Below are positions 5,997 through 57,720 of a stretch of 64,000 nt of DNA, piece by piece. The translations under genes were made by a program, and so were the position numbers. Origin of the DNA: Octopus sinensis (lineage: Eukaryota). The first letter of the stretch is position 1. Every line of letters starts with the position of its first letter. Where the stretch lies: positions 47,554,001 to 47,618,000 of the forward strand of contig NC_043013.1 in NCBI RefSeq assembly GCF_006345805.1. The letters are read 5' to 3'. The notes below the pieces were generated by a model. That model saw nothing but the letters and a program-made list of their open reading frames with translations. It was not told where the DNA came from and did not search any database.

Positions 5997-6307
5997 CCAG
6001 CATGGCCACAGCTCGTGAGCTGAAACTAGATAAAATAAAATAAAATAAAATAAACAAATATATATACCCACACATATATATATTGTGTTGAAAAGACGAT
6101 TTCTTATAAATTTGTGCTAGAGATTTGAGAATTACTATATTTATGGTAAAAATGAAAACTTCTGTGAGCTTATATAATTACTGTTTAATATCAAATTTAA
6201 AAATTTGGTTTGACTCTAGAATTTCGATTTGGGTGCCTTAATGCTTTGAAACTTTATAATTGAATGGCGAGGTGGGTGCCTCTAATGAACTTGAATGTAT
6301 ACATATT

Positions 6308-6538
6308 TATTTCTTTACTACACACAAGGGGCTAAACACAGAGGGGACAAACAAGGACAGACAAACGGATTAAGTCGATTACATCGACCCCACTGCGTAA
6401 CTGGTACTTAATTTATCGACCACGAAAGGATGAAAGGCAAGGTCGACCTCGGCGGAATTTGAACTCGGAACGTAACGACAGACGAAATACGGCTACGCAT
6501 TTCGCCCGGCGTGCTAACCTTTCTGCCAGCTCGCCGCC
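6308..6538 (-). mobile_element. SINE family A, full length
   Basis: Minus strand ggcggcgagctggcagaaaggttagcacg (A-box-like), gagttcaaattcc (B box), conserved central domain, tail ending gtagtaaagaaata. Confidence 0.93.
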
Positions 6539-7016
6539 TTAATAACGCTCGCCTGGTATAATAACGCTGCATCCCCTCTTGAGTCTCTGTATAGGACCCA
6601 GTCTTGGAAAAATACTCATTAGCTCAATTCTAGAATTCTCTATTAATGGGGCTTCATTGGCTTCGATGATGATCTTTAAAGAGGTAGATAATGTGATTGC
6701 ATGACAAACTGTGAAGCCATCGGGCAAGAATATAATTAGTATTTGATATATTTGTTTCAAATTCTGGCGCAAGGCTAATAATTTCGGGTGGCGAAAGTGT
6801 GACTTTTAAACAGAATAAGCTACTTGACCTGCAAGGTGGAGCCCAGTTGTTTATCTTGATATGAGGTCATTATGTTGTGCCCATGTGAATGTGATGCACG
6901 TGCCCGGTGTATCCTTAACAGACGAGTAATCATGACGGGTATATTGGATTTCGTATCTTTCTACCCCGAGGTCACTTTAATGGCGTGTGCTGCACCCTCA
7001 CAAAAGAATAATAACA

Positions 7017-7227
7017 GCTTCAAATTTTGGCAGAAGTCTAGCAATTTGGGGGGAGGAGTTAGGCCGATGATATCGATTCCAATGATCCATGAGTGCTTAT
7101 TTTATCGACCCTGAAAAAGTGAAAAGCAAAGTCGACCTCGGCGGAATTTGAACTCAGAACGTAAAGACGGACGAAACGCCGCAAAGAAATTTGCCCGACG
7201 TGCTAACCATTCTGCCAGCTCGCTGCC
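7017..7227 (-). mobile_element. SINE family A with the alternative (cccccaaatt..) tail
   Basis: Same head and central domain as 6308-6538, different 3' tail. Confidence 0.8.
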
Positions 7228-7302
7228 TTACATTATATAACATAATGTAATGTAATATAATACAATGTGTGTGAGTGTGTGTGTGTATGTGTGTGTGTGT
7301 GT

Positions 7303-7338
<36 letters not shown>

Positions 7339-7559
7339 TTTCTGTACATATGTCGTTATGAACAGGTGGACAGAGAAAGACAGACAGAGTGAGGAGAAAG
7401 TGGAAGATAGACAAAGAGAAATACAATAAAATACAATAAACAAGGTTGAGAAGTGACCTGACTCAACAGTAAATGCATATGGATTCATTTATTTATTTAT
7501 TCACAATAGCTTCAGTTTCACTGCAGAGTTGATTATACTTTTATATGTATGTATGTATG

Positions 7560-7593
<34 letters not shown>

Positions 7594-7630
7594 TGTATGT
7601 ATGTATGTTTGTATGTATGTATGTATGTAC

Positions 7631-8181
7631 GTCAGGTCACTTTCGAGTGCTACTGGTAACATGTAACCCAGTACAACCTGTAGCATGGTCGGGTCGTCGG
7701 CGACTAAACCGGCAACCCCACCAAACTTGCTTGGTGAGGAGGGTGTTTATTGGACACCCTGCGGGATGAAAAGCAAAATTCGTCAAAGGGCGGAGGAACT
7801 CTTGAGAGTCAACGGCCATCCAATAAATGTCTTAAGGCTGTATCATGCGCGGGGACATAGAAATAATCGGACTGAATTCCCGATCGCGAGGTTAAACCAT
7901 TGGGAGTGAAGGACTCCCAGCCTTTGTTAGGGTATCCTTCTAGGAGAAGGTAACTCAGGTAACTGGGATAACTCCAATATGAAACCTGCGGCTCAGTGGT
8001 TACCGATGATGTTGACTTGTTCTTCTTTTCGGATTATGGCTGCTGTTGCTTAGTGAGTGGGATTGACTCAGTGCACAGCCTTTCCTCACTTTAAAAAAAA
8101 TCTTCTTGCACAGGCATTGCACGATAACAACATTGATTAAGCTTCGTGCAATGGCCATACTCGATAACGAGGGGCAGCCAC
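7631..8181 (+). mobile_element. Non-coding RTE-like (5'UTR-type) element inserted in (TATG)n
   Basis: GC-richer 550-bp island flanked both sides by (TATG)n. Contains ctaggagaaggtaactc, resembling a motif common in RTE 5' UTRs; no credible ORF. Confidence 0.5.
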
Positions 8182-8474
8182 TATGTATGTATGTATGTAT
8201 GTTGTATGTATGTATGTATGTATGTTTGAATTATGTATGTTGTATGTATGTATGAATGTATGTATGTATGTAGGTATGTATGTATGTTTGTATGTGTGTA
8301 TGTATGTATGTATGAATGTATGTATGTATGAATGTACGTATGTATGTATGCATGTATGTTTGTATGTAAGTATATATGTATGTATGTTTGTATGTATGTA
8401 TGTATGTATGTATGCATGTATGTATGTATGTATGTATGTATGTATGTATGTATGTATATATGTTAGTATGTATG

Positions 8475-9022
8475 TAGAGGGTGGAGCAGAGATGACGGAC
8501 GTTTTTGAAATGGCTATCATTCAGCCCCAGGAGGAGGGACATATATCCGATAAGTACCATTCGGTTTCTTTTTTCTTTTTAAGTGAAACCATGGCGCTGT
8601 GGACGATTGAGCATCGCGTGTTTGCCTACGACAATTACGCGTCAGACAAGCTTTGATACCGAGTCCAGATCACTTTGCACGGAGGCATTCCACTAAACTT
8701 GGAATCGGTAATCGATCGGTAAGGCTTATTTTGCATGAAGTCCTGCATTTCCACCCGTACAAATTGGTCATTGGGCAACAGTTGAAACCACAGGACTATG
8801 CAAAGAGCAATGTTGGAGAGAGTGGATGCCGACTTCCAAGAACGCCTCCAGAAATGCATCCCTGAAAACGGACACCACATGATGGATGTTGTTTTCCACG
8901 CTTGATTTTGGGAAATGCTAATTCAATACCAACATATTGATGTCAATAAAATTTGCTTGCAGCGAAAATTAATGACTTTGGGAATTTTCCAAAAACCTCC
9001 CTCCTCTCTGCCCCACCCTGTC
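8475..9022 (+). mobile_element. Internally deleted Tc1/mariner-superfamily element (DUF4817-type N-terminus)
   Basis: Imperfect TIRs gagggtggagcagagatgacggacgttttt (from 8477) and aaaaacctccctcctctctgccccaccctg (to 9020). Fragments MALWTIEHRVFAYD (ATG 8591), ARRHSTKLGIGNRSVRLILHEVLHFHPYKL and DFQERLQKCIPENGHH; DDE core deleted. Confidence 0.85.
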
Positions 9023-9102
9023 TGTGTGTGTGTGTTGAATAAAATGAGACAACAAAGCCAAGACAGTGTGAAATTTCTAGGCCATTTATAAAGAGAAAAT
9101 TA

Positions 9103-9150
9103 GTTTTACAGTTGTTTCGGGGATATAAAGGATATCCCACCATCAGAGTC
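9103..9150 (-). ncRNA. Degenerate type I hammerhead-like motif
   Basis: Minus: gact CTGATGG t gggatat-ccttt-atatccc c GAAA CAACTG TA aaac. 7-bp helix II, near-palindromic helix III, GUA triplet; A9G change and poor helix I. Confidence 0.5.
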
Positions 9151-9289
9151 GATATGAGATAGTTAAATAGAAAGAAACAGTAGAGTTCAATATAAAATGT
9201 TATTTTGATAAGGGTGGGATATGGGAAGTATAAAGGGAAATATTAGAATAAAAATAAAATATGTTGGATGTTACAATTGCAGTTCCATT

Positions 9290-9976
9290 ATCCAAGGAAT
9301 GTACTGTGTAGAATGAGTGAAGAGGCTTCTTGTCCATAGTATGTAAATTCCGAAAGGATTTCATATTTTGCTTGTCTCCCCTTCGTAAACATAAGGACAC
9401 AGAAAATGTGTCAAGGCCGACAGAAAGAATTGATACGTCCTAGGGCTAAATAGCGGTGGTGTGATTCCCTTCATGGGACTGTCACGTTAAGTTGACAGTA
9501 TACAATTGATCTATCGTACCACCACTGCTCATATCTCTCTGAGATATTTAAAAATTTAATATTTCTATTTTTTGTGATCAGTGGATTTATTTCACTGGAA
9601 TTATTATATGTTTACAAGGTCTATACACGCATCTGCAGCTAGTAGGCCATGATACTCCAGACTGATGACGAGCAAGACTCAGAAACTAGTCTCTGGATGC
9701 AGGCTTAGCTGGATGGGGGTGCTTGTCTCACCGTTGTAAACATAAGGATAATGAAATGTATCAAGGCCGACAGGAAGAGTTGGTGCGTCCTAGGGCTAAA
9801 TAGTGGTGGTGTGATTCCCTTTATGGAACTGTCACATTACGTTGACAGTATACAACTGCTCTAATTCATATTTTGTTATTATAAAACTTGTAATAACAAA
9901 ATATGAATTACTTTCAGAATTTACATACTATGGACAAGAAGCCTCTTTACCCATTCTACATAGCACATTCCTTGGT
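9290..9976. repeat. PLE-like tandem plus inverted repeat architecture
   Basis: ~9370-9515 repeated directly at ~9721-9863; ~9292-9370 repeated inverted at ~9896-9975; hammerhead motifs nearby. Confidence 0.7.
9656..9697 (+). ncRNA. Minimal type I hammerhead ribozyme (dimer-type, PLE/retrozyme-like)
   Basis: tccaga CTGATGA c gag-caaga-ctc a GAAA CTAG TC tctgga. Perfect 6-bp helix I, intact CUGAUGA and GAAA boxes, palindromic ACUAGU helix III, GUC triplet (cleavage after 9691). Confidence 0.8.
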
Positions 9977-10280
9977 CTCTTATAAATATATATATATATG
10001 TGTGTGTGTGTTTGTGCGTGTGTATATGTATGTATGTCTCTATATATATATATGTATATACATATACATACGTATATATATTTTTTCATTATTATTATTA
10101 TTATTTTTATTATTTAAAACACTTCTATTCGTGCCCCATGCAACTTAATGTTTCATCAGGTTCTTACGGAAACCTGTCTCCTTTTAAATAATAATATATG
10201 TAAGAGCTACAAGCCGTGTGGAGTGCCTCATTCTTTCCTTTATCTACTCACCTGTATATATATATATATATATATATATA

Positions 10281-10630
10281 GGCGTAGGAGTGGCTGCGTG
10301 GTAAGTAGCTTGCTTACCAACCACTAAAGCCTTGTGAGTGGATTTGGTAGACGGAATCTGAAAGAAGCCGGTGTATATATGTGTATATATATATATATTG
10401 TGTGTGTGTGTGTGTATGTTTGTGTGTCTGTGTTTGTTCCCCCGACATCGCTTGACAACCGGTGCTGGTGTGTTTACGTCCCTGTAACTTAGCGGTTCGG
10501 CAAAAGAGACCGATAGAATAAGTACTAGGCTTACAAAGAATAAGTCCTGGTGTCGATTTGCTCGACTAATGGCGGTGCTCCAGCATGGCCGCTGTCAAAT
10601 GACTGAAACAAGTAAAAGAGTAAAGAGAGT
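10281..10630 (+). mobile_element. SINE family B (tRNA head, CORE-like block, internal microsatellite), internally deleted
   Basis: ggcgtaggagtggctg..ggtaagtagcttgc head, internal (TA)/(TG) tract, aaacaagtaaaagag tail. Confidence 0.88.
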
Positions 10631-10640
10631 ATATATATAT

Positions 10641-10694
<54 letters not shown>

Positions 10695-10739
10695 GCACAC
10701 ACCATGTATACACACACACACGGCATATTAGCTCAGAAA

Positions 10740-12110
10740 CAGTATTCTGTATATTTTGATTTAAATATTCCAATACAGCTGTTGGGCACCTTTTGATTTC
10801 TATGGGTACTCTTCTGTGTTTTTAGCACTATACGAATTTTAATGATTGGCAATTCTTTGCTTAACATAACGTAAGCTAGATCCGATATACAAGTACTCTT
10901 TATCTTCTGAGCTAACCTTACATCTGTATACACCATTTTTATAACTATAATTAGACTTGCATTTGATAGTTCTACGACTTCCATTAATAGATTCCGTTTC
11001 AGCTTCGCTAGAGGTGATTTCTAAATTCTCCTGCCTATCTTCTCAGCTATTACTCGTTCCCACATAGACAACATTCTGAGTCCTACGTTTTCTAAGATTC
11101 GCATCTTCCACTCCCAGGCTAGTGCGCGAGTTTGCTAGGGTAGCTTTCATTTTATAAATAGTCACAGCATAGTTCCTATCCTGATACTTAGCAGGGTTAC
11201 TTATGGTTTGTTTATGGTCTGTTCGCTCATGTTGGCATTGTTGCTATTTACTCTCTTACTTGTTTCAGTCATTTGACTGTGGCCATGCAGGAGAACCGCC
11301 TTTAGTCGAGCAAATCGACCCCAGGACTTATCCTTTGTAAGCCTAGTACTTATTCTATCGGTTTCTTTTGTCGAACCGCTAAGTTACGGGGACGTAAACA
11401 CACCATCATCAGTTATCAAGCGATGTTGGGAGGACAAACACACACACACACACACATACATATGTAGATATATACGACGGATTCTTTCAGTATCCGTCTA
11501 CCAAATTCACTCACAAAGCTTTGGTCGGCCCGAGGCTATAGTAGAAGACACGCAGTGAGAATGAATCCGGAACCATGTGGTTCGTAAGCAAGCCACTTAC
11601 TACACAGCCACTCCTACGCCTATTGATCTATTTATTGATCTATAATTATTATTCTGGTTACCATTGTTGTTATTATTTATATGGAAACTATTTAATCTAC
11701 CAGCATTGTGTGCTGCTATAACTTGTGCTAGAGTTTTGCTATTAGAAAAGGTTAGTCTAAATCTATGTATATCAAATATTCTATAATATCTATTGCTTTT
11801 TGGGAAATGTTTAGCCAATGCCGAATAGAACAATTTAGGTATATTGGAAATTATTTGCTTTCCGAAAGGAATTATATACCACTCGTTACTGAGGTATGTA
11901 TTACTATTTCTAACTATGCGTTTTGTAAAAGTGTTTAACCTATTTACCTGTTTTTTTTTTATTTCGGCATTGGTTTTGTTTCGGCATATTATATTTGTCA
12001 GTTATTTATGTTGTTTTCGGATGTGAATAAGATATCCACTCTTCTCTTGGTTGTGAATGTTATTAAATACTTTGCAGAATATTTGCAGTTTTGAATAGGA
12101 ACACGGAATT
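10740..12110 (-). pseudogene. Decayed Penelope-like element (RT C-terminus plus GIY-YIG endonuclease), split by a SINE
   Basis: Minus translation WYIIPFGKQIISNIPK..LAKHFPKSNRYYRIF..RLTFS..LAQVIAAHN (PLE RT C-terminal region), then NGVYRCKVSSEDKEYLYIGSS..KQRIANH (GIY-YIG, ~10845-10940). Confidence 0.82.
11248..11620 (-). mobile_element. SINE family B inserted into the Penelope remnant
   Basis: Reverse complement of the family B pattern, with internal (CA)n. Confidence 0.9.
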
Positions 12111-12252
12111 ACCCAACGAGTGAAGTTTACCAGTACCAGTACTTGAGTACTATATAATAGAATGTTGTGGATAGCCGGCATCTAAAAACCAATTCCAGAG
12201 ACAATATGGTATCCGCCAGGATAGCTTATCCCTTTTATACATATATATATAT

Positions 12253-12288
<36 letters not shown>

Positions 12289-12689
12289 AATATGTATTAT
12301 ATAAATATATAAATATATATATATAAATATGTATATATATAAATATATATATATAATATTTATATATATAACATATTTATATATATATTAATATATTATA
12401 TAGAGAGAGAGAGAAGAGAGAGAGAGAGGAACACGAGACAGACAGACACAACACACACACACACACAGAGTTCGCATCAAAAGCTCATCAAATATATTTT
12501 ACAGAAAATTTATGCATTTTATATAATCTGGAAGAGAATGTTCTTTGTATCTGTGTGTGCCTTTGTGTGTGCCTTTGTGTGTGTGTGTCTGTGTGTCTGT
12601 GTGCGCGCGCGCGCGTGGTGTGTGCATGCACGCGTGTGCATGTAAGCATGTGTGTGTGTGACGAATGATTGGTTCGAAGGAGTAGAAAA

Positions 12690-12866
12690 GAGAAATAAGG
12701 AAATAAAGAGAGAAAATAGACAGGTCAGAAATAAGTGCAGGAAAGGAGAGAAAGAGAGAAAGAGAAAGAGAAAAGACATAAAGAAAGAAAGAAAGAAAGA
12801 AAGAAAAAAGAAGGAAAGAAATAAAGAAAGGAAGAAAAGAAAGAAAGGAAGAAAGAAAGGAAAAAA

Positions 12867-12898
<32 letters not shown>

Positions 12899-13450
12899 AA
12901 AGAAAGGAAGGAAAAAGAAAGAAAAAAGAAAGAAAAAAGAAAGAAAGAAAGATAGAAAGGAAAAAAGAGAGAAAAAAAGAAACAAACAAACAAACAAACA
13001 AACAAACAAACAAAGAAGGAAAGAAATAAAGAAAGGAAGAAAAGAAAGAAAGAAAAAAGAAAGGAACGAAAAAGAAAGATTCTGCAAAGTATTTAATAAC
13101 ATTCACAACCAAGAGAAGAGTGGATATCTTATTCACATCCGAAAAGAAGAAAGAAAGGAAGAAAGGAAGAAAGAAAGAAAGGAAGAAAGAAGGAAAGAAA
13201 GATAGGAAAAAAGAAAGAAAGAAAGGAAAAAAGAAAGAAAGAAAAAAAGAAAGAAAGAAAGGAAGGAAAAAAGAAAGAAAAAAGAAAGAAAGAAAGAAAG
13301 GAAAAAAGAAAGGAAGAAAGAAAGAAGGGGAAGCGCCTTTTTTCTAAGATGGCTCTCATTGTATTTTTATGGTCAGTTGTTTCACAGCTGTTTGAAGTTA
13401 ATGACATTTCAAGATGTCATTTTTTGTTTTAGTTATTGTTTTGAAGACAC

Positions 13451-13500
<50 letters not shown>

Positions 13501-13663
13501 TCTTTCTCTCTCTACCTTTATGCATGAATGTGTGTGTGCAAGCATGTGTATGGTAGCTGAATATTCGGACAGACGGAGAAGAATTGGGAAGTAAAAAGAA
13601 AGACAAAATGAAAGAAAGAAACAATGAAATAAATAAATAGATAAATAAAGACAGGAAGAGGAC

Positions 13664-13703
<40 letters not shown>

Positions 13704-13750
13704 ACGAAAGAAAGAACGAAAGAAAGAAACGAAGGAAAGAAAGAAAGAAA
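12690..13750. repeat. Purine-rich (GAAA)n-type tracts with (CT)n and unique inserts
   Basis: Directly visible; gives the K/E/R and F/L/S pseudo-ORFs. Confidence 0.93.
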
Positions 13751-13968
13751 GTACCAGAGGCAGAGAGAAGGGATCCTGAAATGGTTTAAATTGTATTCAT
13801 ATGATCAACTTGTTGATGTTGCTGACAATTCGAGATGTCGATTTTGTTTTTTGTCATGGCCCTGAAGACATCTCTCTGTCTCTCTTCCTCTGATTATATA
13901 CATACTAGCATGTATGTAGATATACACATACGTACACTTACATATACACAATGCAATATATATGTATG

Positions 13969-14000
<32 letters not shown>

Positions 14001-14044
14001 ATATGCATGGAAAAAATAACCTTCAAAGGTAATAATTATTAAAT

Positions 14045-14243
14045 TTATAAATTAGGGTATCTACGGGATACCACTATGCTGAAAATAGCAGCCATGATCT
14101 GACTCTAAAATCACCTTAATTGTCCATATATCAACACGGAGTGAAAAGACATATTGATATATGGACAATTAAGGTGGGTTTAGAGTCAGATCATAGCTGC
14201 TATTTTCAGCATGGTGGTATCCCGTAGACACCCTAATTTATAA
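14045..14243. repeat. Fold-back inverted repeat, 90-bp arms, 19-nt spacer
   Basis: 14045-14134 is the reverse complement of 14154-14243 with about 5 mismatches; (TA)n on both sides. Confidence 0.95.
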
Positions 14244-14244
14244 T

Positions 14245-14297
<53 letters not shown>

Positions 14298-14682
14298 TTA
14301 TGTATATGGGTAAAAAATTAAGGAGTGCGTGCATTACATAAATAATATTTTCAGGATTAAATAAAAAGACAACAAACGGAAATTTTTTTTAATACGTGTA
14401 ATATATTAACAAACGAACATATACTAAATACACAGGTGAATAGAAAGCACAGAAAGTCGCCAATTCCTCATCAGTTATCAGCTAGAGAGGTCGAACGCAA
14501 TTTCAGAAATTATCAATAAGATTACTTCCACTTTGGAGCACCGGCAAGAAACTTACCGGGAATGGCACTAAAGCATAGCGAAAACGTGACCGCCAGTGGA
14601 AGGACGAGGGACAAAATAATAAACGATAAAGGTTTAGGGCCAGATGAAGACAACAATTAATAAAAAAAAGAATGATACATTA

Positions 14683-14851
14683 GGCGTAGGAGTGGCTGTG
14701 TGGCAAGTAGCTTGCTTACGAATCACATGGTTCCGGGTTCAGTCCCACTGCATTGCACCTTGGCCAAGTGTCTTATATTATAGCCTCGGGCCAACCAAAG
14801 CCTTGTGAGTGGATTTGGTAGACGGAAACTGAAAGAAGCCCATCGTATATA

Positions 14852-14888
<37 letters not shown>

Positions 14889-14985
14889 CTGTGTTTGTCG
14901 TCTCAATATCGCTTGACAACCGATGCTGGTGTGTTTACATCTCCGTAACTTAGCAGTTCGGCAAAAGAGACCGATATAATAAATA
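14683..14985 (+). mobile_element. SINE family B, 3'-truncated
   Basis: Head, ccgggttcagtccc B-box-like motif, ccttggccaagtgtc CORE-like block. Confidence 0.88.
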
Positions 14986-16041
14986 GGTATACAAGTTTGT
15001 ACGGATGTACACTCTCCCACGCGTGCACAAACACACACATATGTATGCACGTGTGTGCACATGCATATGTTTGTGTATATATACATGCATATATATGCGT
15101 GTGTGTGCTTGTATCTATATGACTGCATATATGCGTGTGTACTCATAGATGTGTCAATATAAGCGTATGGAAACTTGTATACGTATACACATTGAGATAT
15201 GTGTATGTATGTGAATGTGTGTGTGTGTGTGTGTGTGTAAGGTTGCATGTGCTAATGTATGTGTATATATGTGTGTACGTAGATGTAGGTGTGTATGTGT
15301 GTGTGGGTGTTTTTGTGTGTGTGTGTGTGCGCGCAGGTATGTGTGTGGATGTATGAATGCGTGTGTGTTTGCGCATAAGTGGCTGAATAAGGGCACACCA
15401 TGCCAACTATGAAAAGTGAACAAAATGGGCCGAAATCGAAAGATTCACAAAGGTCACCCTCTGACAATAACTCAACGTCATTTTGGCCACTCTCAAAAAT
15501 ATTCCATTTCTTTATTCCTAATAGACCAATCTCAATACCACCTTTTGTCATCTCACCTTCCACTTTTTTCGTCCTCTTTTCACCCCTTTATCCTTTTCTT
15601 CCTCCCCTCTTCCTTCTTTTTCACCCTCTTACACGTGCTGCTGCACCCATTCATTGTACTCCTCTACCATTTCTTATATTATTTTTTATATAAGTTCTCA
15701 CAATCTCCCCCCACCCCTTATTTTTCCATTTTTATCCTTCGTTTGCACACCTGTAAGAAAATCCTTCGCCACACAAACGACCTTCTAAACCACAGAATTT
15801 CAATTAAATTTAGGATAGCCATTGTTGCAAAGTTGTGACTTGTGTTAAAATATAAATCATCCCCCAAAAGCTATCCCCCACCTGAAATATATTATACTGT
15901 ATCAATAACCCCCTTACTATTCCATCACATACACACACACACACGCACATATATAGAAAGAGAGACGACAGACAGACAGACAGACAGACAGAGGGACGGA
16001 CAGACTGACAGACAGACAGACAGTCAAAGAGACAGACACAC

Positions 16042-16112
<71 letters not shown>

Positions 16113-16659
16113 CAGATAGGTAGACAGATATTGATCTATGCTAGTTTTAAAACTTGGGTGGCGGAGCTATGATTAAACTTAAAGTACTCAGTGTCATACG
16201 GTAGGAGAAATTATTCAAACTGCGCTACTTACATAACTAGTCATGTAGCTTTCAGTTTCGAAATCATCAGAGCGCAAATAAAAAGATTAAGTGTTATTGT
16301 GTGGACGGGTTAATATAATGCAGAGTATTCAGTAATGTCATAGAAGAGGATATGACACAAGCACTAACGAAGGTACTTGAATACTTCACCTTAAGATAGC
16401 GTTATGCAGAAGTAAGACAAAGAAGGAAGAAGACAAGTCAGGTTTAAAAATATTGTTTCTGATTTAAATTCAAGACGAACAGTTTTGTATGGATGGGGTT
16501 AATCGATTTAATCGATCTCAATACTTGATTAGCAAGGTATTTTGCATACTTGTAAGAAAAATATTTTGCTATATAAACAACCTTCTAAAGCACAGAATTT
16601 CAGTTTGAAAACGGATATCGAAAAGCCTCGAAACTCATTAGAGTAATTGTAAAGATTAT

Positions 16660-17249
16660 CTATTTCCTTACTACCCACAAGGGGCTAAACACAGAGGGGA
16701 CAAACAAGGACATACAAACGGATTAAGTCGATTACATCGACCCCAGTGCGTAACTGGTTCTTAATTTATCGATCCCGAAAGGATGAAAGGCAAAGTCGAC
16801 CTCGGCAGAATTTGAACTCAGAACGTAGAGGCAGACGAAATATCTATTTCTTTACTACCCACAAGGGGCTAAACACAGATGGGACGAACAAGGACAGACA
16901 AACGGATTAAGTCGATTACATTGACCCCAGTGCGTAACTGGCACTTAATTTATCGACCCCGAAAGGATGAAAGGCAAAGTTGACCTCGGCGCAATTTGAA
17001 CTCAGAACGTAGCGGCAGATGAAATACCTGTTTCTTTACTACCCACAAGGGGCTAAACACAGAGGGGACGAACAAGGACAGACAAACGGATTAAGTCGAT
17101 TACATCGACCCCAGTGCGTAACTGGTACTTTATTTATCGACCCCGAAAGGATGAAGGGCAAAGTTGACCTCGGCGCAATTTGAACTCAGACGTAGCGGCA
17201 GACGAAATGCCTGTTTCTTTACTACCCACAAGGGGCTAAACAAAGAGAA
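16660..17249 (-). mobile_element. Tandem array of 3.2 head-less SINE A units (period 183-184 bp) with TSD
   Basis: Unit boundaries at 16660, 16844, 17028, 17211; flanks taattgtaaagattatc (16644-16660) and taattgtaaacattatc (17250-17266). Confidence 0.93.
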
Positions 17250-17604
17250 TAATTGTAAACATTATCATTAAGGTAAAAATTATACCCCCAAAAGCCATCT
17301 GTACTCCTTTTTTCAGATATATATATATATATATATATATATGTGCGTGTGTGTTTGTGTGTGTACGTGTGTATGTGTGTGTGAGTGTGTGTATGTGTGT
17401 GTGTGAGTGTGTGTGTGTGTGTGTGTGTACTCGTGTTTGTGTTTGTCCTCTTACCATCGCTTGACAACCGATGGTAGTGTGTTAGCGTCCCCGTAAATTA
17501 GCGGTTCGGTAAAAGCGACCGATAGAATAAGTACTAGGCGAACATAAAAATGTTCGTCTTACCTCTAGGAAGAGCGCAGTATAAAAGGACAACCTCGAAT
17601 GGAT

Positions 17605-18512: not shown

Positions 18513-19112
18513 TTTTACTTGTTTCAGTTATCAGACTTCTGCCCTTTTTTGGCAGCGCCTTGAAGAATTTTAGTCGAATGAATCGACCCCATTACTTATT
18601 TATTTCTTTACTACCCACAAGAGGCTAAACGCAGAGGGGACAAACAAGGACAGACAAACGGATTAAGTCGATTTCACTGACCCCAGTGCGTAACTGGTAC
18701 TTAATTTATCGACCCCGAAGGGATGAAAGGCAAAGTCGACCTCGGCGGAATTTGAACCCAGAGCGTAACGGCAAACGAAATACGGCTATGCACTTCGCCC
18801 GGTGTGTTAACGTTTCTGCCAGCTCGCCCCAGTACTTATTTTTAAGCTTAGTGCTTACTCCAGCTGTCCCTCAGCCGAACCGCTAAGTTACAGTGAAGAA
18901 AGGAGGAACGAACGCAGACACAAACAAAGACAAACACGCATAGATACATACATATACAAAGAGCTTCTTTCAATTTCCGCCTACCAAATCCGCTCAAAAG
19001 ACCTTGGTCAACCCTATACTATAGTAGAAGACACAGCCCCAAGGTGGCACGCAGTGGGACTGAGCCCGGAACCATGTATTGGGAAGCAAACGTTTTGTCA
19101 CACAGCCACGCC
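18513..19112 (-). mobile_element. Older SINE B copy carrying a nested SINE A (18601-18829)
   Basis: SINE A flanked by an approximate TSD cccca(t/g)tacttattt inside the SINE B body. Confidence 0.85.
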
Positions 19113-24833: not shown

Positions 24834-25528
24834 TATCATCGCTAATCGTAACTAAACCACGATTAATACACCGACAAGTGTTTAAGACGTTTTGCCCAAA
24901 TCAAACAGTTTCCTCCAAACTAAAAGGACTTTATCCGGAACTAACGAGAACAAAACTGCACTTAACAACGGCAAACTTAGTAGAAATATGCTGTTCTTAT
25001 TTTGAACTACATTGTTCAAAACAAGTGCAGCATGCAAATAATCTGTGGAAGCTTTAAGTACAGAAATAGCCCCGATGCTGCAAAATCACCGCTAAATATA
25101 TTCCGGAGCCTGTGTGTATAGAGTGTTGACGATAGCATAAAACTGTAACACTCAAGTCCGAAAGCTGAACCACAGTACAATGTCAGCATATCAATGGTGC
25201 ATAAACATTATGGAGTGTTACATCTGAGAGGGGACAGTGTTAGCTAGAGTTCTGGTGGTCACTTTAAATGTTAAGTTCTGTTGTCACCGACTGTCTTCCC
25301 TGGCAAAAGGTTTCCTTTAACAGAGGAAGAAATACCCATGAAAGATTACCGATTCTTTTGAGGGTCAGAAAATACTCGAGTTCCAAATAATTGTTGGCAC
25401 AAGGTAAAGCTTAAATCGGACCCACAGTGAAGTATCGTGTAGAAGTAGCATCTAGAACGATCCGGTTTCTGTATAAACAGGCATCCTAGATTGCATCCAA
25501 AGAAAGGCCATTTGGCTGATTGGTATAA

Positions 25529-25861
25529 AAGTCGACCTCGGCGGAATTTGAACTCACAACGTAACTTCAAATTCCGCCGAGGTCGACTTTGCCTTTCATC
25601 CTTTTGGGGTCGGTAAATTAAGTGCTTAACTGGTACTTAATTTACCGACCCCGAAAGGATGGAAGGCAAAGTCGACCTCGGCGGAATTTGAAGTTACGTT
25701 GTGAGTTCAAATTCCGCCGAGGTCGACTTTGCCTTTCATCCTTTCGGGGTCGGTAAATTAAGTACCAGTTAAGCACTGGGGTCGATATAATCGACTTAAT
25801 ACCTATGTCTGTCCATGTTTGTCCCCTCTATGTTCAGCCCCTTGTGGGTAATAAAGAAATA
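25529..25861 (+). mobile_element. SINE A insertion with nested double fold-back 5' end
   Basis: Alternating -/+/-/+ segments of one SINE copy; ggtataaaa at 25522-25530 and 25862-25870 is a probable TSD. Confidence 0.9.
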
Positions 25862-42157: not shown

Positions 42158-42382
42158 TTATTTCTTTAGTACCCACAAGGGGCTAAACACAGAGGGGACA
42201 AACAAGGACAGACAAACGGATTAAGTCGATTACATCGACCCCAGTGCGTAACTGGTACTTAATTTATCGACCCCGAAAGGATGAAAGGCAAAGTCGACAT
42301 CGGCGGAATTTGAACTCAGAACGTAACGGCAGACGAAATACGGCTACGCATTTCGCCCGGCGTGCTAACGTTTCTGCCAGCT
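42158..42382 (-). mobile_element. SINE family A, young near-full-length copy
   Basis: Near-identical to 6308-6538; agctact at both flanks. Confidence 0.93.
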
Positions 42383-49038: not shown

Positions 49039-49966
49039 TCTTTTCTACTCTAGGCGCATGGCCCGAAATTTTTGGGGAGGGGACAAGTTGATTAGATTGA
49101 CCCCCAGTATGCAAATGGTACTTAATTTATCGACCCCGAAAGAATGAAAGGCAAAGTCGACCTCGGCGGAATTTGAACTCAGAACGTAAAGACAGACGAA
49201 ATACCTATTTCTTTACTACCCACAAGGGGCTAACACAGAGAGGACAAACAAGGACAGACAAACGGATTAAGTCGATTATATCGACCACAGTGCGTAACTG
49301 GTATTTAGTTTATCGACCCCGAAAGAATGAAAGGCAAAGTCGACCTCGGCGGAATTTGAACTCAGAACGTAAAGACAACGAAATACCTATTTCTTTACTA
49401 CCCACAAGGGGCTAAACACAGAGAGGACAAACAAGGACAGACAAACGGATTAAGTCGATTATATCGACCACAGTGCGTAACTGGTATTTAGTTTATCGAC
49501 CCCGAAAGGATGAAAGGCAAAGTCGACCTCGGCGGAATTTGAACTCAGAACGTAAAGACAGACGAAATACCTATTTCTTTACTACCCACAAGGGGCTAAA
49601 CACAGAGAGGACAAACAAGGACAGACAAACGGATTAAGTCGATTATATCGACCACAGTGCGTAACTGGTATTTAGTTTATCGACCCCGAAAGGATGAAAG
49701 GCAAAGTCGACCTCGGCGGAATTTGAACTCAGAACGTAAAGACAGACGAAATACCTATTTCTTTACTACCCACAAGGGGCTAAACACAGAGAGGACAAAC
49801 AAGGACAGACAAACGGATTAAGTCGATTATATCGACCACAGTGCGTAACTGGTATTTAGTTTATCGACCCCGAAAGGATGAAAGGCAAAGTCGACCTCGG
49901 CGGAATTTGAACTCAGAACGTAAAGACAGACGAAATACCTATTTCTTTACTACCCACAAGGGGCTA
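49039..49966 (-). mobile_element. Tandem array of head-less SINE A units (4 x 182-184 bp plus partial) joined to one unit with a different tail
   Basis: Unit boundaries 49205, 49387, 49571, 49755, 49939; shared private variants cgaccacagtg and ggtatttagttt. Confidence 0.95.
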
Positions 49967-57493: not shown

Positions 57494-57717
57494 GGCGAGC
57501 TGGCAGAAACGTTAGCACGCCGGGCGAAATGTGTAGCCGTATTTCGTCTGTCACTACGTTGTGAGTTCAAATTCCGCCGAGGTCGACTTTACCTTCCATC
57601 CTTTCGGGGTCGATAAATTAAGTACCAGTTACACACTGGGGTCGATGTAATCGACTTAATCCTTTTATCTGTCCTTGTTTGTCCCTTCTATGTTTAGCCC
57701 CTTGTGGGCAATAAAGA

Positions 57718-57720
<3 letters not shown>
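57494..57720 (+). mobile_element. SINE family A, full length
   Basis: ggcgagctggcagaaacgttagcacgccggg..gagttcaaattcc..caataaagaaaa. Confidence 0.93.

What the first reader, a model, noticed from the sequence alone, without database searches (positions are those of the whole stretch)
16644..17266. Head-less SINE multimer inside a single 17-bp TSD: circular or processed SINE RNA as template?
Seen: 3.2 units of 183-184 bp, none with the SINE 5' head (A box), bounded by one TSD (16644-16660 and 17250-17266, 1 mismatch). In sense orientation each junction reads ..aaagaaayag|rtatttc..-like. The 3' tail end is fused to the edge of the loop of the long head hairpin seen in full copies (gggcgaaatgc-gtagcc-gtatttcgtc, e.g. 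6481-6508). The tail end gaaata is itself complementary to the tatttc it joins. Inference: at least a more-than-unit-length permuted cDNA was inserted in one event. That fits rolling-circle reverse transcription of a circularised, loop-cleaved SINE RNA, or a site-specific template jump. Units 2 and 3 share variants, so some later DNA-level duplication is possible.
Basis: partly seen in the sequence, partly recalled or inferred. Interest (0 to 1): 0.75.

Follow-up and report, generated by a model that had tools for sequence, protein, structure and literature searches.

The report
Truncated copy of chained SINE
The array is a head-less, 5'-truncated copy of a very common SINE that occurs as chains of body units behind one head, so it is an ordinary member of an abundant family; how the chains are built is likely a restart of reverse transcription at a fixed motif, not a circular RNA.

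Summary
There are 3.2 units of 184 bp on the minus strand, with no head, between two copies of a 17-bp target. In 7 of 7 paralogous copies of the host repeat that target is single.

The array is not a special case. Its exact 27-base junction occurs 21,177 times in the 2.72-Gb genome. Of 67 sampled junction-bearing elements, 55 begin with a complete head, followed by 1 to 9 or more head-less units. Target duplications flank whole composites. The window array is therefore a 5'-truncated retrocopy of this family, and one unit was likely duplicated later in place.

A circular-RNA rolling circle is not supported:
- Heads are usual.
- Adjacent units in short chains often belong to different subfamilies (19 of 49 pairs).
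- The junction follows one tail type almost exclusively.

A single frozen dimeric master is not supported either.

The junction (tail AAATA | GGTATTTCG) sits where the head hairpin carries GGTAT. GGTA also starts 6 of 11 flanks of this tail type, and true nested insertions at this site exist.

My preferred mechanism (about 0.45) is that the cDNA restarts on another SINE RNA tail at this motif. The main rival (about 0.35) is nested insertion followed by read-through transcription. Similar arrays are published for a clam and for squamates.

The parts
16644..16660 (.). Left copy of the 17-bp target-site duplication (TAATTGTAAAGATTATC). It lies at the 3' end of the insert in sense orientation.
   Evidence: sequence. 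Present once in 7 of 7 paralogous host-repeat copies.
16661..16844 (-). 3'-most full unit (184 nt). It is of the 'internal' tail type (GGGTAGTAAGGAAATA) and is followed directly by the TSD.
16845..17028 (-). Middle full unit (184 nt). It shares three rare variants with the next unit upstream (unit positions 36 C>G, 47 G>A, 142 T>C).
17029..17211 (-). 5'-most full unit (183 nt). It is the likely partner of the middle unit in a later local duplication.
17212..17247 (-). 36-nt tail fragment of a further unit. This is the 5' truncation point of the insert, at about position 198 of the 234-nt reference copy.
17248..17249 (.). Two bases (AA) between the SINE sequence and the TSD. They are filler at the 5' junction. 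The AGAG next to them is shared by the SINE end and the host sequence.
   Evidence: comparison with empty paralogous sites.
17250..17266 (.). Right copy of the target-site duplication (TAATTGTAAACATTATC).
16541..16643 (.). Left part of the host repeat into which the array was inserted. The right part runs from 17267 to about 17330.
   Evidence: (44 genome matches at 82-91% identity).
49039..49966 (-). Second array of the same family in the window. It has a 27-nt tail fragment, four units that are 99.5-100% alike, and a terminal head-less unit with a different ('B') tail. It is also 5'-truncated and head-less.
   Evidence: Its private 39-mer occurs only here (4 times) and once on the small contig C6099.
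6306..6539 (-). Full single-unit copy of the SINE, used as the reference. It has the head with the A-box-like motif, the hairpin, the B-box-like motif, the body and the tail. Other single copies lie at 18600-18828(-), 42158-42382(-) and 57494-57719(+).

Best explanation
The 589-bp insert is a 5'-truncated retrocopy of a multi-unit form of an abundant tRNA-like SINE. It was put into a copy of another repeat in one insertion event, and one of its units was likely duplicated in place afterwards.

Shown:
- The family consists of one head-bearing unit followed by head-less 184-nt units. All are joined at the same point: tail ...AAAGAAATA | GGTATTTCG, which is the 3' side of the head hairpin loop.
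- Whole chains are flanked by target duplications.
- The joint coincides with GGTAT. GGTA also starts the flank of 6 of 11 elements that end in this tail type.

Inferred (about 0.45): chains are made anew at many retrotransposition events. When the LINE-encoded reverse transcriptase has copied a SINE RNA back to the GGTAT at the loop, the cDNA end (...GAAATACC-3') resembles the nicked target that normally primes this tail type. The enzyme would then restart on the tail of a second SINE RNA with a chance of roughly one half per pass. If it instead reads on, it copies the head and finishes. If it falls off early, a head-less copy such as this one results.

Long, homogeneous arrays are likely later DNA-level amplifications.
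For: Insertion as a block:
- 17-bp TSD, 16 of 17 identical.
- 7 of 7 paralogous empty sites hold the target once.

Family anatomy:
- The exact junction 27-mer occurs 21,177 times, and 0 times in the reversed control.
- 55 of 67 sampled elements start within the first 10 nt of the head; 6 start at 11-30 and 6 beyond 30.
- TSDs of 10 bp or more flank 28 of 67 whole composites, against 27 of 1,321 mismatched flank pairs.

Later local duplication:
- Two adjacent units share 3 rare variants.
- The 31-mer carrying two of them occurs in tandem only here. The 16 other hits are single, in unrelated positions.

Recurrent joining, not one master and not a circle:
- Units fall into two perfectly linked subfamily types.
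- In elements with fewer than 6 units, 19 of 49 adjacent pairs differ in type, in both orders. In arrays of 6 or more units, 0 of 25 differ.
- No diagnostic column separates head-adjacent from internal units (62 vs 39 units).
- No diagnostic column separates CAAT-type terminal units from CAAT single copies.

Constant chance of adding a unit:
- 34/67, 16/34, 8/16 and 5/8.
- 8 composites against about 10 single-unit elements in 600 kb of unselected sequence.

Motif rule:
- After terminal TAGT-type tails, 6 of 11 flanks start with GGTA.
- AAATAA-ending tails are often followed by AGAA/GAAA (11 of 39).
- A second fixed junction, AAATAA|GAAACGTTAGCAC at head position 17, occurs 1,907 times.
- B tails are followed by ATA... 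They are almost never internal: 1 junction among about 7,900 B tails.

5' ends cluster at the loop: 5 of 20 truncated starts lie at positions 47-55 (p = 0.0015).

No run of 4 or more T on the sense strand of either window array or of the full copy.
Against: - The restart step has not been observed. It is inferred from static copies.
- True nested insertions at the same site exist and give the same junction. The rival route, nested insertion then read-through, therefore rests on one step that has been demonstrated.
- Internal units are slightly more diverged from the family majority than the head unit of the same element (7.5% vs 5.8%, n = 27, p = 0.024). This fits older resident units better than simultaneous copying. 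Terminal units do not show it.
- One of the 5 starts near the loop (L010) is not a true end, because more units lie upstream.
- The samples come from 16 Mb of one chromosome plus 600 kb, not the whole genome. The junction-bearing sample was chosen by an exact 27-mer.
- The direction of cause between the GGTA-starting flanks and the junction cannot be fixed. Priming inside chain RNAs would give the same flanks.
- 42 of 67 diverged genomic composites contain some run of 4 T, so many copies could not be read through today.
Confidence: 0.5

Rival explanations
1. Nested insertion followed by read-through. A TAGT-type SINE inserts by ordinary target-primed reverse transcription into the GGTAT site in the head hairpin of a resident SINE. 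This separates the resident's A box from its B box and silences it. The newcomer's own promoter then transcribes through its tail into the resident's remainder, because no T-run intervenes. This composite RNA retrotransposes as a unit and founds chain-forming source genes. The window array would be a truncated daughter of such a source.
For: - In-place nested structures are seen directly: resident head (1 to about 65), then a full SINE, then the resident resuming at GGTATTTCG.
- The duplicated resident stretch varies in length (14-22 nt). In L131, L137 and L138 it carries the same private variants on both sides.
- L139 shows two head fragments, a full copy and two head-less units, a symmetric 'Russian doll'.
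- The site lies between the A-box-like (14-24) and B-box-like (78-88) motifs.
- Whole composites have their own TSDs in unique DNA.
- Internal units are slightly more diverged than head units.
Against: - None of the 67 sampled junction-bearing elements has a resident head fragment upstream.
- The exact nested pattern occurs 129 times, including arrays, against 21,177 junctions. A few nested loci would therefore have to become very productive sources.
- Many different sources would be needed. Both orders of subfamily types occur, there are three terminal types, and unit number runs from 2 to 10.
- High shares of three subfamilies sit behind TAGT units: 7 of about 27 CAAT units and 6 of 10 B units.
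- The constant one-in-two chance of a further unit is not predicted.
Confidence: 0.35
2. One frozen accident. A single dimeric (or trimeric) master with a head arose once. All chains descend from it, and unit number changes only by unequal crossing-over or slippage.
For: - The junction is uniform.
- Heads are the rule.
- Terminal A units differ from internal ones at four positions.
- Long arrays are internally homogeneous.
Against: - Adjacent units in short chains differ in subfamily type in 19 of 49 pairs, in both orders.
- Head-unit haplotypes in dimers span the family's diversity.
- Three kinds of terminal unit occur, each also existing as a head-bearing single SINE.
- The same junction is made de novo by nested insertions.
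Confidence: 0.05
3. A SINE RNA is cleaved in the hairpin loop and circularised (or ligated end to end), and is then copied by rolling-circle reverse transcription into a permuted multimer.
For: - The window array and the second array in the window both lack a head.
- The joint lies at the loop edge.
- 5' ends are enriched at positions 47-55. This could reflect RNA ends there.
Against: - 55 of 67 family members have a head in front of the head-less units.
- Units within a chain are often of different subfamily type.
- Terminal units are systematically of another type than internal ones.
- B-type and CAAT-type SINEs share the hairpin but almost never show their own tail joined to a unit start.
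- No ribozyme or other RNA family matched the units at E up to 1.
- 5' truncation of a linear chain explains head-less copies without further assumptions.
Confidence: 0.03
4. Purely DNA-level origin at this locus. A single truncated unit was inserted and then amplified in place to 3.2 units.
For: - Two of the three units share rare variants.
- The second array in the window is clearly amplified in place.
Against: - The third unit shares none of the three variants, and it is as far from the other two (91.8-92.4%) as unrelated copies are.
- The array starts inside a tail and crosses the family-wide junction at once. The inserted piece therefore already spanned more than one unit.
Confidence: 0.02

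Closest known systems
Tandem-like SINE arrays of the form TSD1-(SINE)n-TSD1 in the blood clam Scapharca broughtonii (PMC11481361; passages read)
   Same: - The first unit has a complete tRNA-related head.
- Middle units are truncated in the head.
- The last unit has the same head truncation and a complete tail.
- One TSD surrounds the whole array.
- Arrays have up to 15 units, and the host is a mollusc.
   Different: [quoted passage not shown]
- Here about 8 of 18 unselected elements are chains.
- Units of different subfamilies are mixed.
- The joint coincides with the family's own target-like motif.
- I did not compare sequences between the two species.
SINE-derived satellites (sSats) of squamate reptiles (PMC10702118; passages read)
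   Same: - The tandem units are cut out of a SINE. In snakes they start in the 3' part of the head with box B and include body sequence.
- Long loci are more homogeneous.
- Unequal recombination and repeated insertion at one locus are offered as starts.
   Different: - The squamate arrays are treated as satellites seeded at loci.
- Here most arrays are short, carry a head, and are dispersed as units with their own TSDs. They behave as retroposons.
- Only the long homogeneous arrays (the second window array, L022, L066, L092) resemble sSats.
Composite (dimeric or trimeric) SINEs with a fixed architecture, such as tRNA-dimer SINEs mentioned in PMC4758252 (passage) and Alu (recalled)
   Same: Several SINE-derived modules retrotranspose together from one 5' promoter.
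   Different: In those families the number and order of modules are fixed by a master. Here the number runs from 2 to 10 or more and the order of subfamily types varies.
End-to-end template jumping and template switching by non-LTR and group II intron reverse transcriptases (listed; abstract of 10.1101/2021.05.13.443781 seen; the R2 work is recalled)
   Same: A reverse transcriptase continues cDNA synthesis on a second RNA, using the nascent cDNA 3' end as primer. This is the step I infer.
   Different: Known jumps occur at the 5' end of the template. Here the switch would occur at an internal motif that mimics the target primer, and it has not been tested.
Octopus tRNA-derived SINEs OR1/OR2/OK and the CORE-SINE superfamily (named in PMC4758252 and PMC4824008, passages)
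   Same: tRNA-like head, conserved central body and LINE-like tail in a cephalopod-like genome. By eye the body resembles the CORE domain (recalled, not tested).
   Different: I had no reference sequence of OR1, OR2 or OK, so identity with any of them is untested. The passages I read say nothing about chained bodies.

Membership tests
tRNA-derived SINE (non-autonomous, LINE-dependent retroposon) | Internal RNA polymerase III promoter (A and B boxes) in a tRNA-related head | tested here: inconclusive
   An A-box-like TGGCAGAAAGG at 14-24 fits TRGCNNARNGG, and a B-box-like GTTCAAATTCC lies at 78-88 of the full copy. However, ARAGORN calls no tRNA in the window, and Rfam gives no tRNA match at E up to 1 in 6200-17400.
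tRNA-derived SINE (non-autonomous, LINE-dependent retroposon) | Short, non-coding, very high copy number, dispersed | tested here: met
   The full copy is 234 nt. Exact head/unit 27-mer: 13,366 matches. Tail 27-mer: 37,354. Junction 27-mer: 21,177. These lie on many chromosomes.
tRNA-derived SINE (non-autonomous, LINE-dependent retroposon) | Variable-length target-site duplications, and 5' truncation in some copies | tested here: met
   TSD of 10 bp or more in 28 of 67 elements, against 27 of 1,321 controls. 20 of 109 elements start beyond position 30. The window array has a 17-bp TSD confirmed by empty paralogous sites.
tRNA-derived SINE (non-autonomous, LINE-dependent retroposon) | 3' tail shared with a partner LINE | not tested
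   I did not look for the partner LINE.
TSD1-(SINE)n-TSD1 tandem-like SINE arrays (PMC11481361) | Head-bearing first unit, head-truncated middle and last units, complete tail on the last unit, one TSD around all | tested here: met
   Met for the family: 55 of 67 elements have a head, followed by head-less units starting at reference position 51, with whole-element TSDs. The window array itself lacks the first unit because it is 5'-truncated.
SINE-derived satellite (PMC10702118) | Long homogeneous arrays amplified at a locus | tested here: inconclusive
   The window array (3.2 units, 92-95% alike) does not fit. The second window array (four units 99.5-100% alike, private variants found only there) and arrays of 6 or more units with uniform subtype (25 of 25 adjacent pairs) do fit.
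Rolling-circle cDNA of a circular RNA (retrozyme-like) | Self-cleaving ribozyme or other known circularising RNA motif in each unit | tested here: not met
   No ribozyme family matched at E up to 1 in 6200-17400, on either strand.
Rolling-circle cDNA of a circular RNA (retrozyme-like) | All units of one insertion copied from one template, hence of one subtype, and no head in any member | tested here: not met
   19 of 49 adjacent pairs in short chains differ in subtype. 55 of 67 members carry a head.
Fixed composite SINE descending from one master | Constant number and order of modules | tested here: not met
   Segments per element: two 33, three 18, four 8, five 3, six 1, seven 1, nine 2, ten 1. 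Both orders of subtypes occur.
CORE-SINE superfamily (octopus OR1/OR2) | Conserved CORE domain in the body | not tested
   No reference sequence or profile was on hand. The resemblance is recalled only.

The most novel reading that the evidence does not exclude
A LINE reverse transcriptase in this cephalopod-like genome treats the growing cDNA as a substitute target. Whenever the cDNA end reaches the SINE's internal GGTAT (or GAAAC) motif, it restarts on a fresh SINE RNA about every second time. A single-unit SINE therefore continually spawns chains of geometric length, mixing subfamilies. This would be a built-in 'stutter' that manufactures tandem repeats and new composite SINEs at each retrotransposition.
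Probability: 0.4. Interest if true: 0.65.

Novelty: new variant of a known kind. Interest (0 to 1): 0.42.

Why it matters
For the window itself there is little at stake. The array is one ordinary, truncated member of a family with tens of thousands of joints.

At family level it matters more. A large share of a major SINE family exists as chains with one invariant joint: about 8 of 18 unselected elements here, and SINEs make up 11.6% of the Octopus vulgaris genome according to PMC13282606. That joint sits exactly where the SINE carries a copy of its own insertion motif.

This gives a concrete, testable route from dispersed retroposons to tandem repeats and to new composite SINEs, a link that the squamate and bivalve papers leave open.

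It also warns annotators that 184-bp 'tandem repeats' in such genomes are mostly retroposed SINE chains.

Tried and rejected
- **RNA families.** The Rfam scan of 6200-17400 at E up to 1 gave only microsatellite-driven microRNA look-alikes, and nothing on the SINE.
- **tRNA genes.** ARAGORN found none in the window.
- **Earlier notes.** None are held for this genome.
- **Public runs.** 24 runs were listed. I laid the contigs of four of them (X1, X2, X7, X16) on 16350-17520, and repeat copies swamped the result. Only one contig of X1 bridges the left flank into the first 14 bases of the array. No contig spans the array, so no statement on empty sites, alleles or expression is possible. I did not use the second read-laying run, because short reads cannot span 184-bp repeats.
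- **A source subfamily for the two look-alike units.** The 31-mer with two shared variants occurs 18 times, but the 16 hits outside the window are single, sit in unrelated element types and lack the third variant. I rejected the idea.
- **Position-specific diagnostic bases, head-adjacent versus internal units.** None at p < 0.001 apart from the joint base itself.
- **Position-specific diagnostic bases, CAAT single copies versus CAAT terminal units.** None apart from boundary columns. The comparison was 19 rows against 20 rows, 5 of which are loci fetched twice.
- **Divergence of head units versus internal units.** A weak difference, p = 0.024, and terminal units do not follow it. I treat it as inconclusive.
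- **Junction hairpin.** The GAAATA/TATTTC pairing folds no better than shuffled sequence.
- **T-runs.** None in the three window copies, but 42 of 67 diverged genomic chains have one. This says nothing about the source genes.
- **My first reading of GTA after terminal tails.** I first took it as a footprint of a next unit. Once TSDs that include GGTA were seen (L064, L093), I replaced that reading with a target or priming motif.
- **Literature.** Six searches found nothing on chained SINE bodies in cephalopods. The passages read in the two octopus repeat papers do not mention them, and I did not open their supplements.
Full report
**1. What is at the coordinates**

Tandem Repeats Finder lists one array at 16660-17247: period 184, 3.2 copies, 94% matches. 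A BLAST of the full SINE copy at 6290-6560 against the window shows that the array lies on the minus strand. Each unit matches positions 71-253 of that stretch, so the first 50 nt of the SINE proper (the head) are missing.

Read in sense, the insert consists of:
- a 36-nt tail fragment (17212-17247)
- three full units (17029-17211, 16845-17028, 16661-16844)

The joints read GAAACA|GGCATTTCG, GAAACA|GGTATTTCA and GAAATA|GATATTTCG.

The full copy folds with a 13-bp hairpin, CGGGCGAAAUGCG-UAGC-CGUAUUUCGUCUG, and the units start at the loop edge of its 3' strand.

**2. The target duplication is real**

The 140 nt left of the array belong to another dispersed repeat, with 44 matches at 82-91% identity. 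In all 7 fetched copies (L112-L118), the sequences matching the left and right flanks of the array are contiguous. They overlap by the 17-bp stretch, which is present once.

These are paralogous empty sites. They show that the whole array is an insertion that duplicated its target. At the 5' junction two extra bases (AA on the plus strand) and a shared AGAG lie between SINE and target. This is usual for a truncated insertion.

**3. It is not a one-off**

A second array of the same period lies at 49039-49966. It has the same joint and a terminal unit with a different tail, called B here.

In the window's own 2.72-Gb genome, the exact 27-base joint occurs 10,583 + 10,594 = 21,177 times, and never in the reversed control.

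I annotated 67 junction-bearing elements from the first 16 Mb of contig C1. They come from 26 distinct loci plus 40 further places from its list. Natural window copies served as BLAST queries. Results:

| Feature | Count |
|---|---|
| Begin within the first 10 nt of the head | 55 of 67 |
| Begin at positions 11-30 | 6 of 67 |
| Begin beyond position 30 | 6 of 67 |
| Ran off the fetched stretch | 1 of these elements |

Behind the head-bearing unit come head-less units that all start at the same point. Segments per element:

| Segments | 2 | 3 | 4 | 5 | 6 | 7 | 9 | 10 |
|---|---|---|---|---|---|---|---|---|
| Elements | 33 | 18 | 8 | 3 | 1 | 1 | 2 | 1 |

A direct repeat of 10 bp or more (at most one mismatch) flanks the whole composite in 28 of 67 elements. 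The same test on mismatched 5' and 3' flanks scores 27 of 1,321. Chains with a head therefore retrotranspose as units.

The window array is what 5' truncation of such a chain gives. It ends exactly at a tail next to the TSD and begins at an arbitrary point inside a unit.

In 600 kb taken without regard to SINEs (three 200-kb blocks), I count about 10 single-unit elements and 8 chains of this family.

**4. One unit was likely duplicated later**

The two 5'-most full units are 95.1% alike. They share three variants that are rare in the family (unit positions 36, 47 and 142). The third unit has none of them and is 91.8-92.4% like the other two. Each unit differs from the family majority at 8-9 positions.

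A 31-mer carrying two of the variants occurs 18 times in the genome. Two hits are in this array, 184 nt apart. The other 16 are single, in unrelated element types, and lack the third variant.

The second window array is a stronger case. Its four units are 99.5-100% alike. Their private 39-mer occurs only there and once on a 2.5-kb unplaced contig.

**5. Circle, single master, or recurrent joining?**

Three results argue against a rolling circle:
- Heads are the rule (section 3).
- Units come in two subtypes, GATAAATTAAG and GATTAAATAAG, whose two differing positions are perfectly linked (61:0 / 4:78). In elements with fewer than 6 units, 30 adjacent pairs are of the same subtype and 19 are of different subtype, in both orders. 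In arrays of 6 or more units, 25 pairs are the same and 0 differ. A circle, or simple duplication, would give like units. That holds only for the long arrays.
- The joint is tied to one tail type, as the table shows.

| Tail type | Exact tail matches | Followed by a unit start |
|---|---|---|
| ...GGGTAGTAAAGAAATAG | 37,354 | 21,177 |
| CAAT-type (...GGGCAATAAAGAAATA) | 16,440 | 556 |
| B-type | 7,903 | 1 |

CAAT and B elements share the hairpin and exist as head-bearing single SINEs. No ribozyme or other known RNA family matches the units.

A single frozen master fits no better:
- Unit number and subtype order vary.
- Three kinds of terminal unit occur.
- No column distinguishes head-adjacent from internal units (62 vs 39 units).
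- No column distinguishes CAAT terminal units from CAAT single copies (5 of the 20 terminal rows are loci fetched twice).

Terminal A-type units do differ from internal ones at four positions. That is because they belong to the CAAT subfamily.

**6. The joint is the family's own insertion motif**

Most heads read ...GCTTAGCGGTATTTCG, so the joint is AAATA|GGTATTTCG.

After terminal tails of the same (TAGT) type, 6 of 11 flanks begin with GGTA. Where a TSD is found, GGTA is part of it (L064, L093).

A pattern search for a unit start followed within 12 nt by a head start gave 129 matches. The fetched examples are true nested insertions: a resident head up to about position 60-70, then a complete SINE, then the resident resuming at GGTATTTCG. 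The duplicated resident stretch varies in length. In L131, L137 and L138 it carries the same private variants on both sides. L139 has two head fragments, a full copy and two head-less units, which is a nested series.

A second tail ending (AAATAA) is often followed by AGAA/GAAA: 11 of 39 in a sample chosen by the CAAT tail. A second fixed joint, AAATAA|GAAACGTTAGCAC at head position 17, occurs 1,907 times and in 7 of the 67 elements.

B tails are followed by ATA.. and are practically never internal.

Joints therefore form where the SINE resembles the sequence at which its tail type is primed.

**7. How the chains are made**

Two routes fit.

*(a) Nested insertion into a resident head.* The site lies between the A-box-like and B-box-like motifs. 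The resident promoter would be split, and the newcomer's promoter would read through into the resident's remainder. No run of 4 T is present in the window copies. The composite RNA would then retrotranspose.

*(b) Restart during reverse transcription.* Once the cDNA has been extended to the GGTAT, its 3' end looks like the nicked target. Synthesis would begin again on the tail of another SINE RNA.

Route (a) has one demonstrated step. Against it:
- None of the 67 sampled chains has a resident head fragment in front.
- The nested pattern is about 160 times rarer than the joint (129 against 21,177).
- Many separate productive parents would be required.

Route (b) explains several things without extra assumptions:
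- The near-constant chance of a further unit: 34/67, 16/34, 8/16 and 5/8, with 8 of about 18 in the unselected census.
- The near-random mixing of subtypes.
- The high share of CAAT units (7 of about 27 that reach the site) and of B units (6 of 10) lying behind TAGT units.
- The excess of 5' ends at positions 47-55: 5 of 20 truncated starts, p = 0.0015. One of these, L010, is not a true end.

Against (b):
- The step is unobserved.
- Internal units are slightly more diverged than head units (7.5% vs 5.8%, p = 0.024).

My probabilities are: (b) about 0.45, (a) about 0.35, a single master 0.05, a circle 0.03, and purely local amplification at this locus 0.02.

That the window array is a truncated retrocopy of a chain, inserted once, I hold at about 0.9.

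**8. What is known**

Passages of a 2024 paper on bivalve SINEs describe arrays of the form TSD1-(SINE)n-TSD1. The first unit is head-bearing, the middle and last units are head-truncated, and the last has a complete tail (PMC11481361). This is the same architecture.

A 2023 paper describes satellites derived from parts of SINEs in squamates, with unequal recombination or repeated insertion as possible starts (PMC10702118, passages).

Octopus SINEs OR1 and OR2 are named as CORE-SINEs in passages of PMC4758252 and PMC4824008. I had no sequence of them, so membership is untested.

Six full-text searches and passages of two octopus genome and repeat papers turned up no description of chained SINE bodies in cephalopods. 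I did not open their supplements, which may bear on this. That the organism is an octopus-like cephalopod is my recollection from the repeat landscape, not a tool result.

**9. Verdict**

The finding is real but ordinary for this genome, and the circular-RNA reading is not supported.

What remains of interest is the family-level rule. Chains join at the SINE's own target-like motif, recurrently and with mixed subfamilies. I rate this a new variant of a known kind, and it is directly testable.

Noticed in passing
window 49039-49966 (-): A second head-less chain: a 27-nt tail fragment, four units 99.5-100% alike, and a terminal B-type unit. Its private 39-mer occurs only here (4 times) and once on the small contig C6099. 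This indicates recent amplification in place.
   Followed up: partly
window 25528-25861: SINE fragments in a palindromic arrangement. Positions 85-122 and 98-167 of the reference copy appear on both strands around 25565/25566 and 25692/25693, followed by a head-less unit that ends in AAATA|GGTATAAAAT.
   Followed up: no
window 16541-16660 and 17250-17330; loci L112-L118: The array sits inside a copy of another dispersed repeat of about 200 bp, with at least 44 copies at 82-91% identity. Its kind was not determined.
   Followed up: partly
L141 (G000:C1:195357453-195360485), L139, and places on C7:15322782-15323079 and C18:40399010-40399172: Head-only tandem arrays of 65-66 bp: SINE positions 1-65 repeated 2-5 or more times in front of a full copy. 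This is the mirror image of the 184-bp body arrays, and is expected as a by-product of nesting at the same site followed by slippage.
   Followed up: partly
L008, L010, L012, L063, L080, L083, L097; genome-wide: A second fixed joint, tail AAATAA | GAAACGTTAGCAC (head position 17). It has 1,907 exact matches in the genome, follows CAAT-type tails and, in one case, a B tail.
   Followed up: partly
L133 (G000:C1:55631046-55634083): A full SINE whose apparent target repeat (GGTACATGATG...) lies about 50 nt upstream of its head, with a partial head in between. It may be a 5' extension or a more complex nested event.
   Followed up: no
L096 (G000:C1:15721300-15726300): A nine-unit chain whose units change from one subtype to the other midway. 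It is either a join of two homogeneous runs or a recombination product.
   Followed up: no
window 14069-14220 (-): A long, nearly perfect hairpin. It scores E = 3.4e-07 against a plant microRNA family but lies far below that family's gathering score (49 vs 120 bits). It is more likely a small inverted-repeat element than a microRNA.
   Followed up: no
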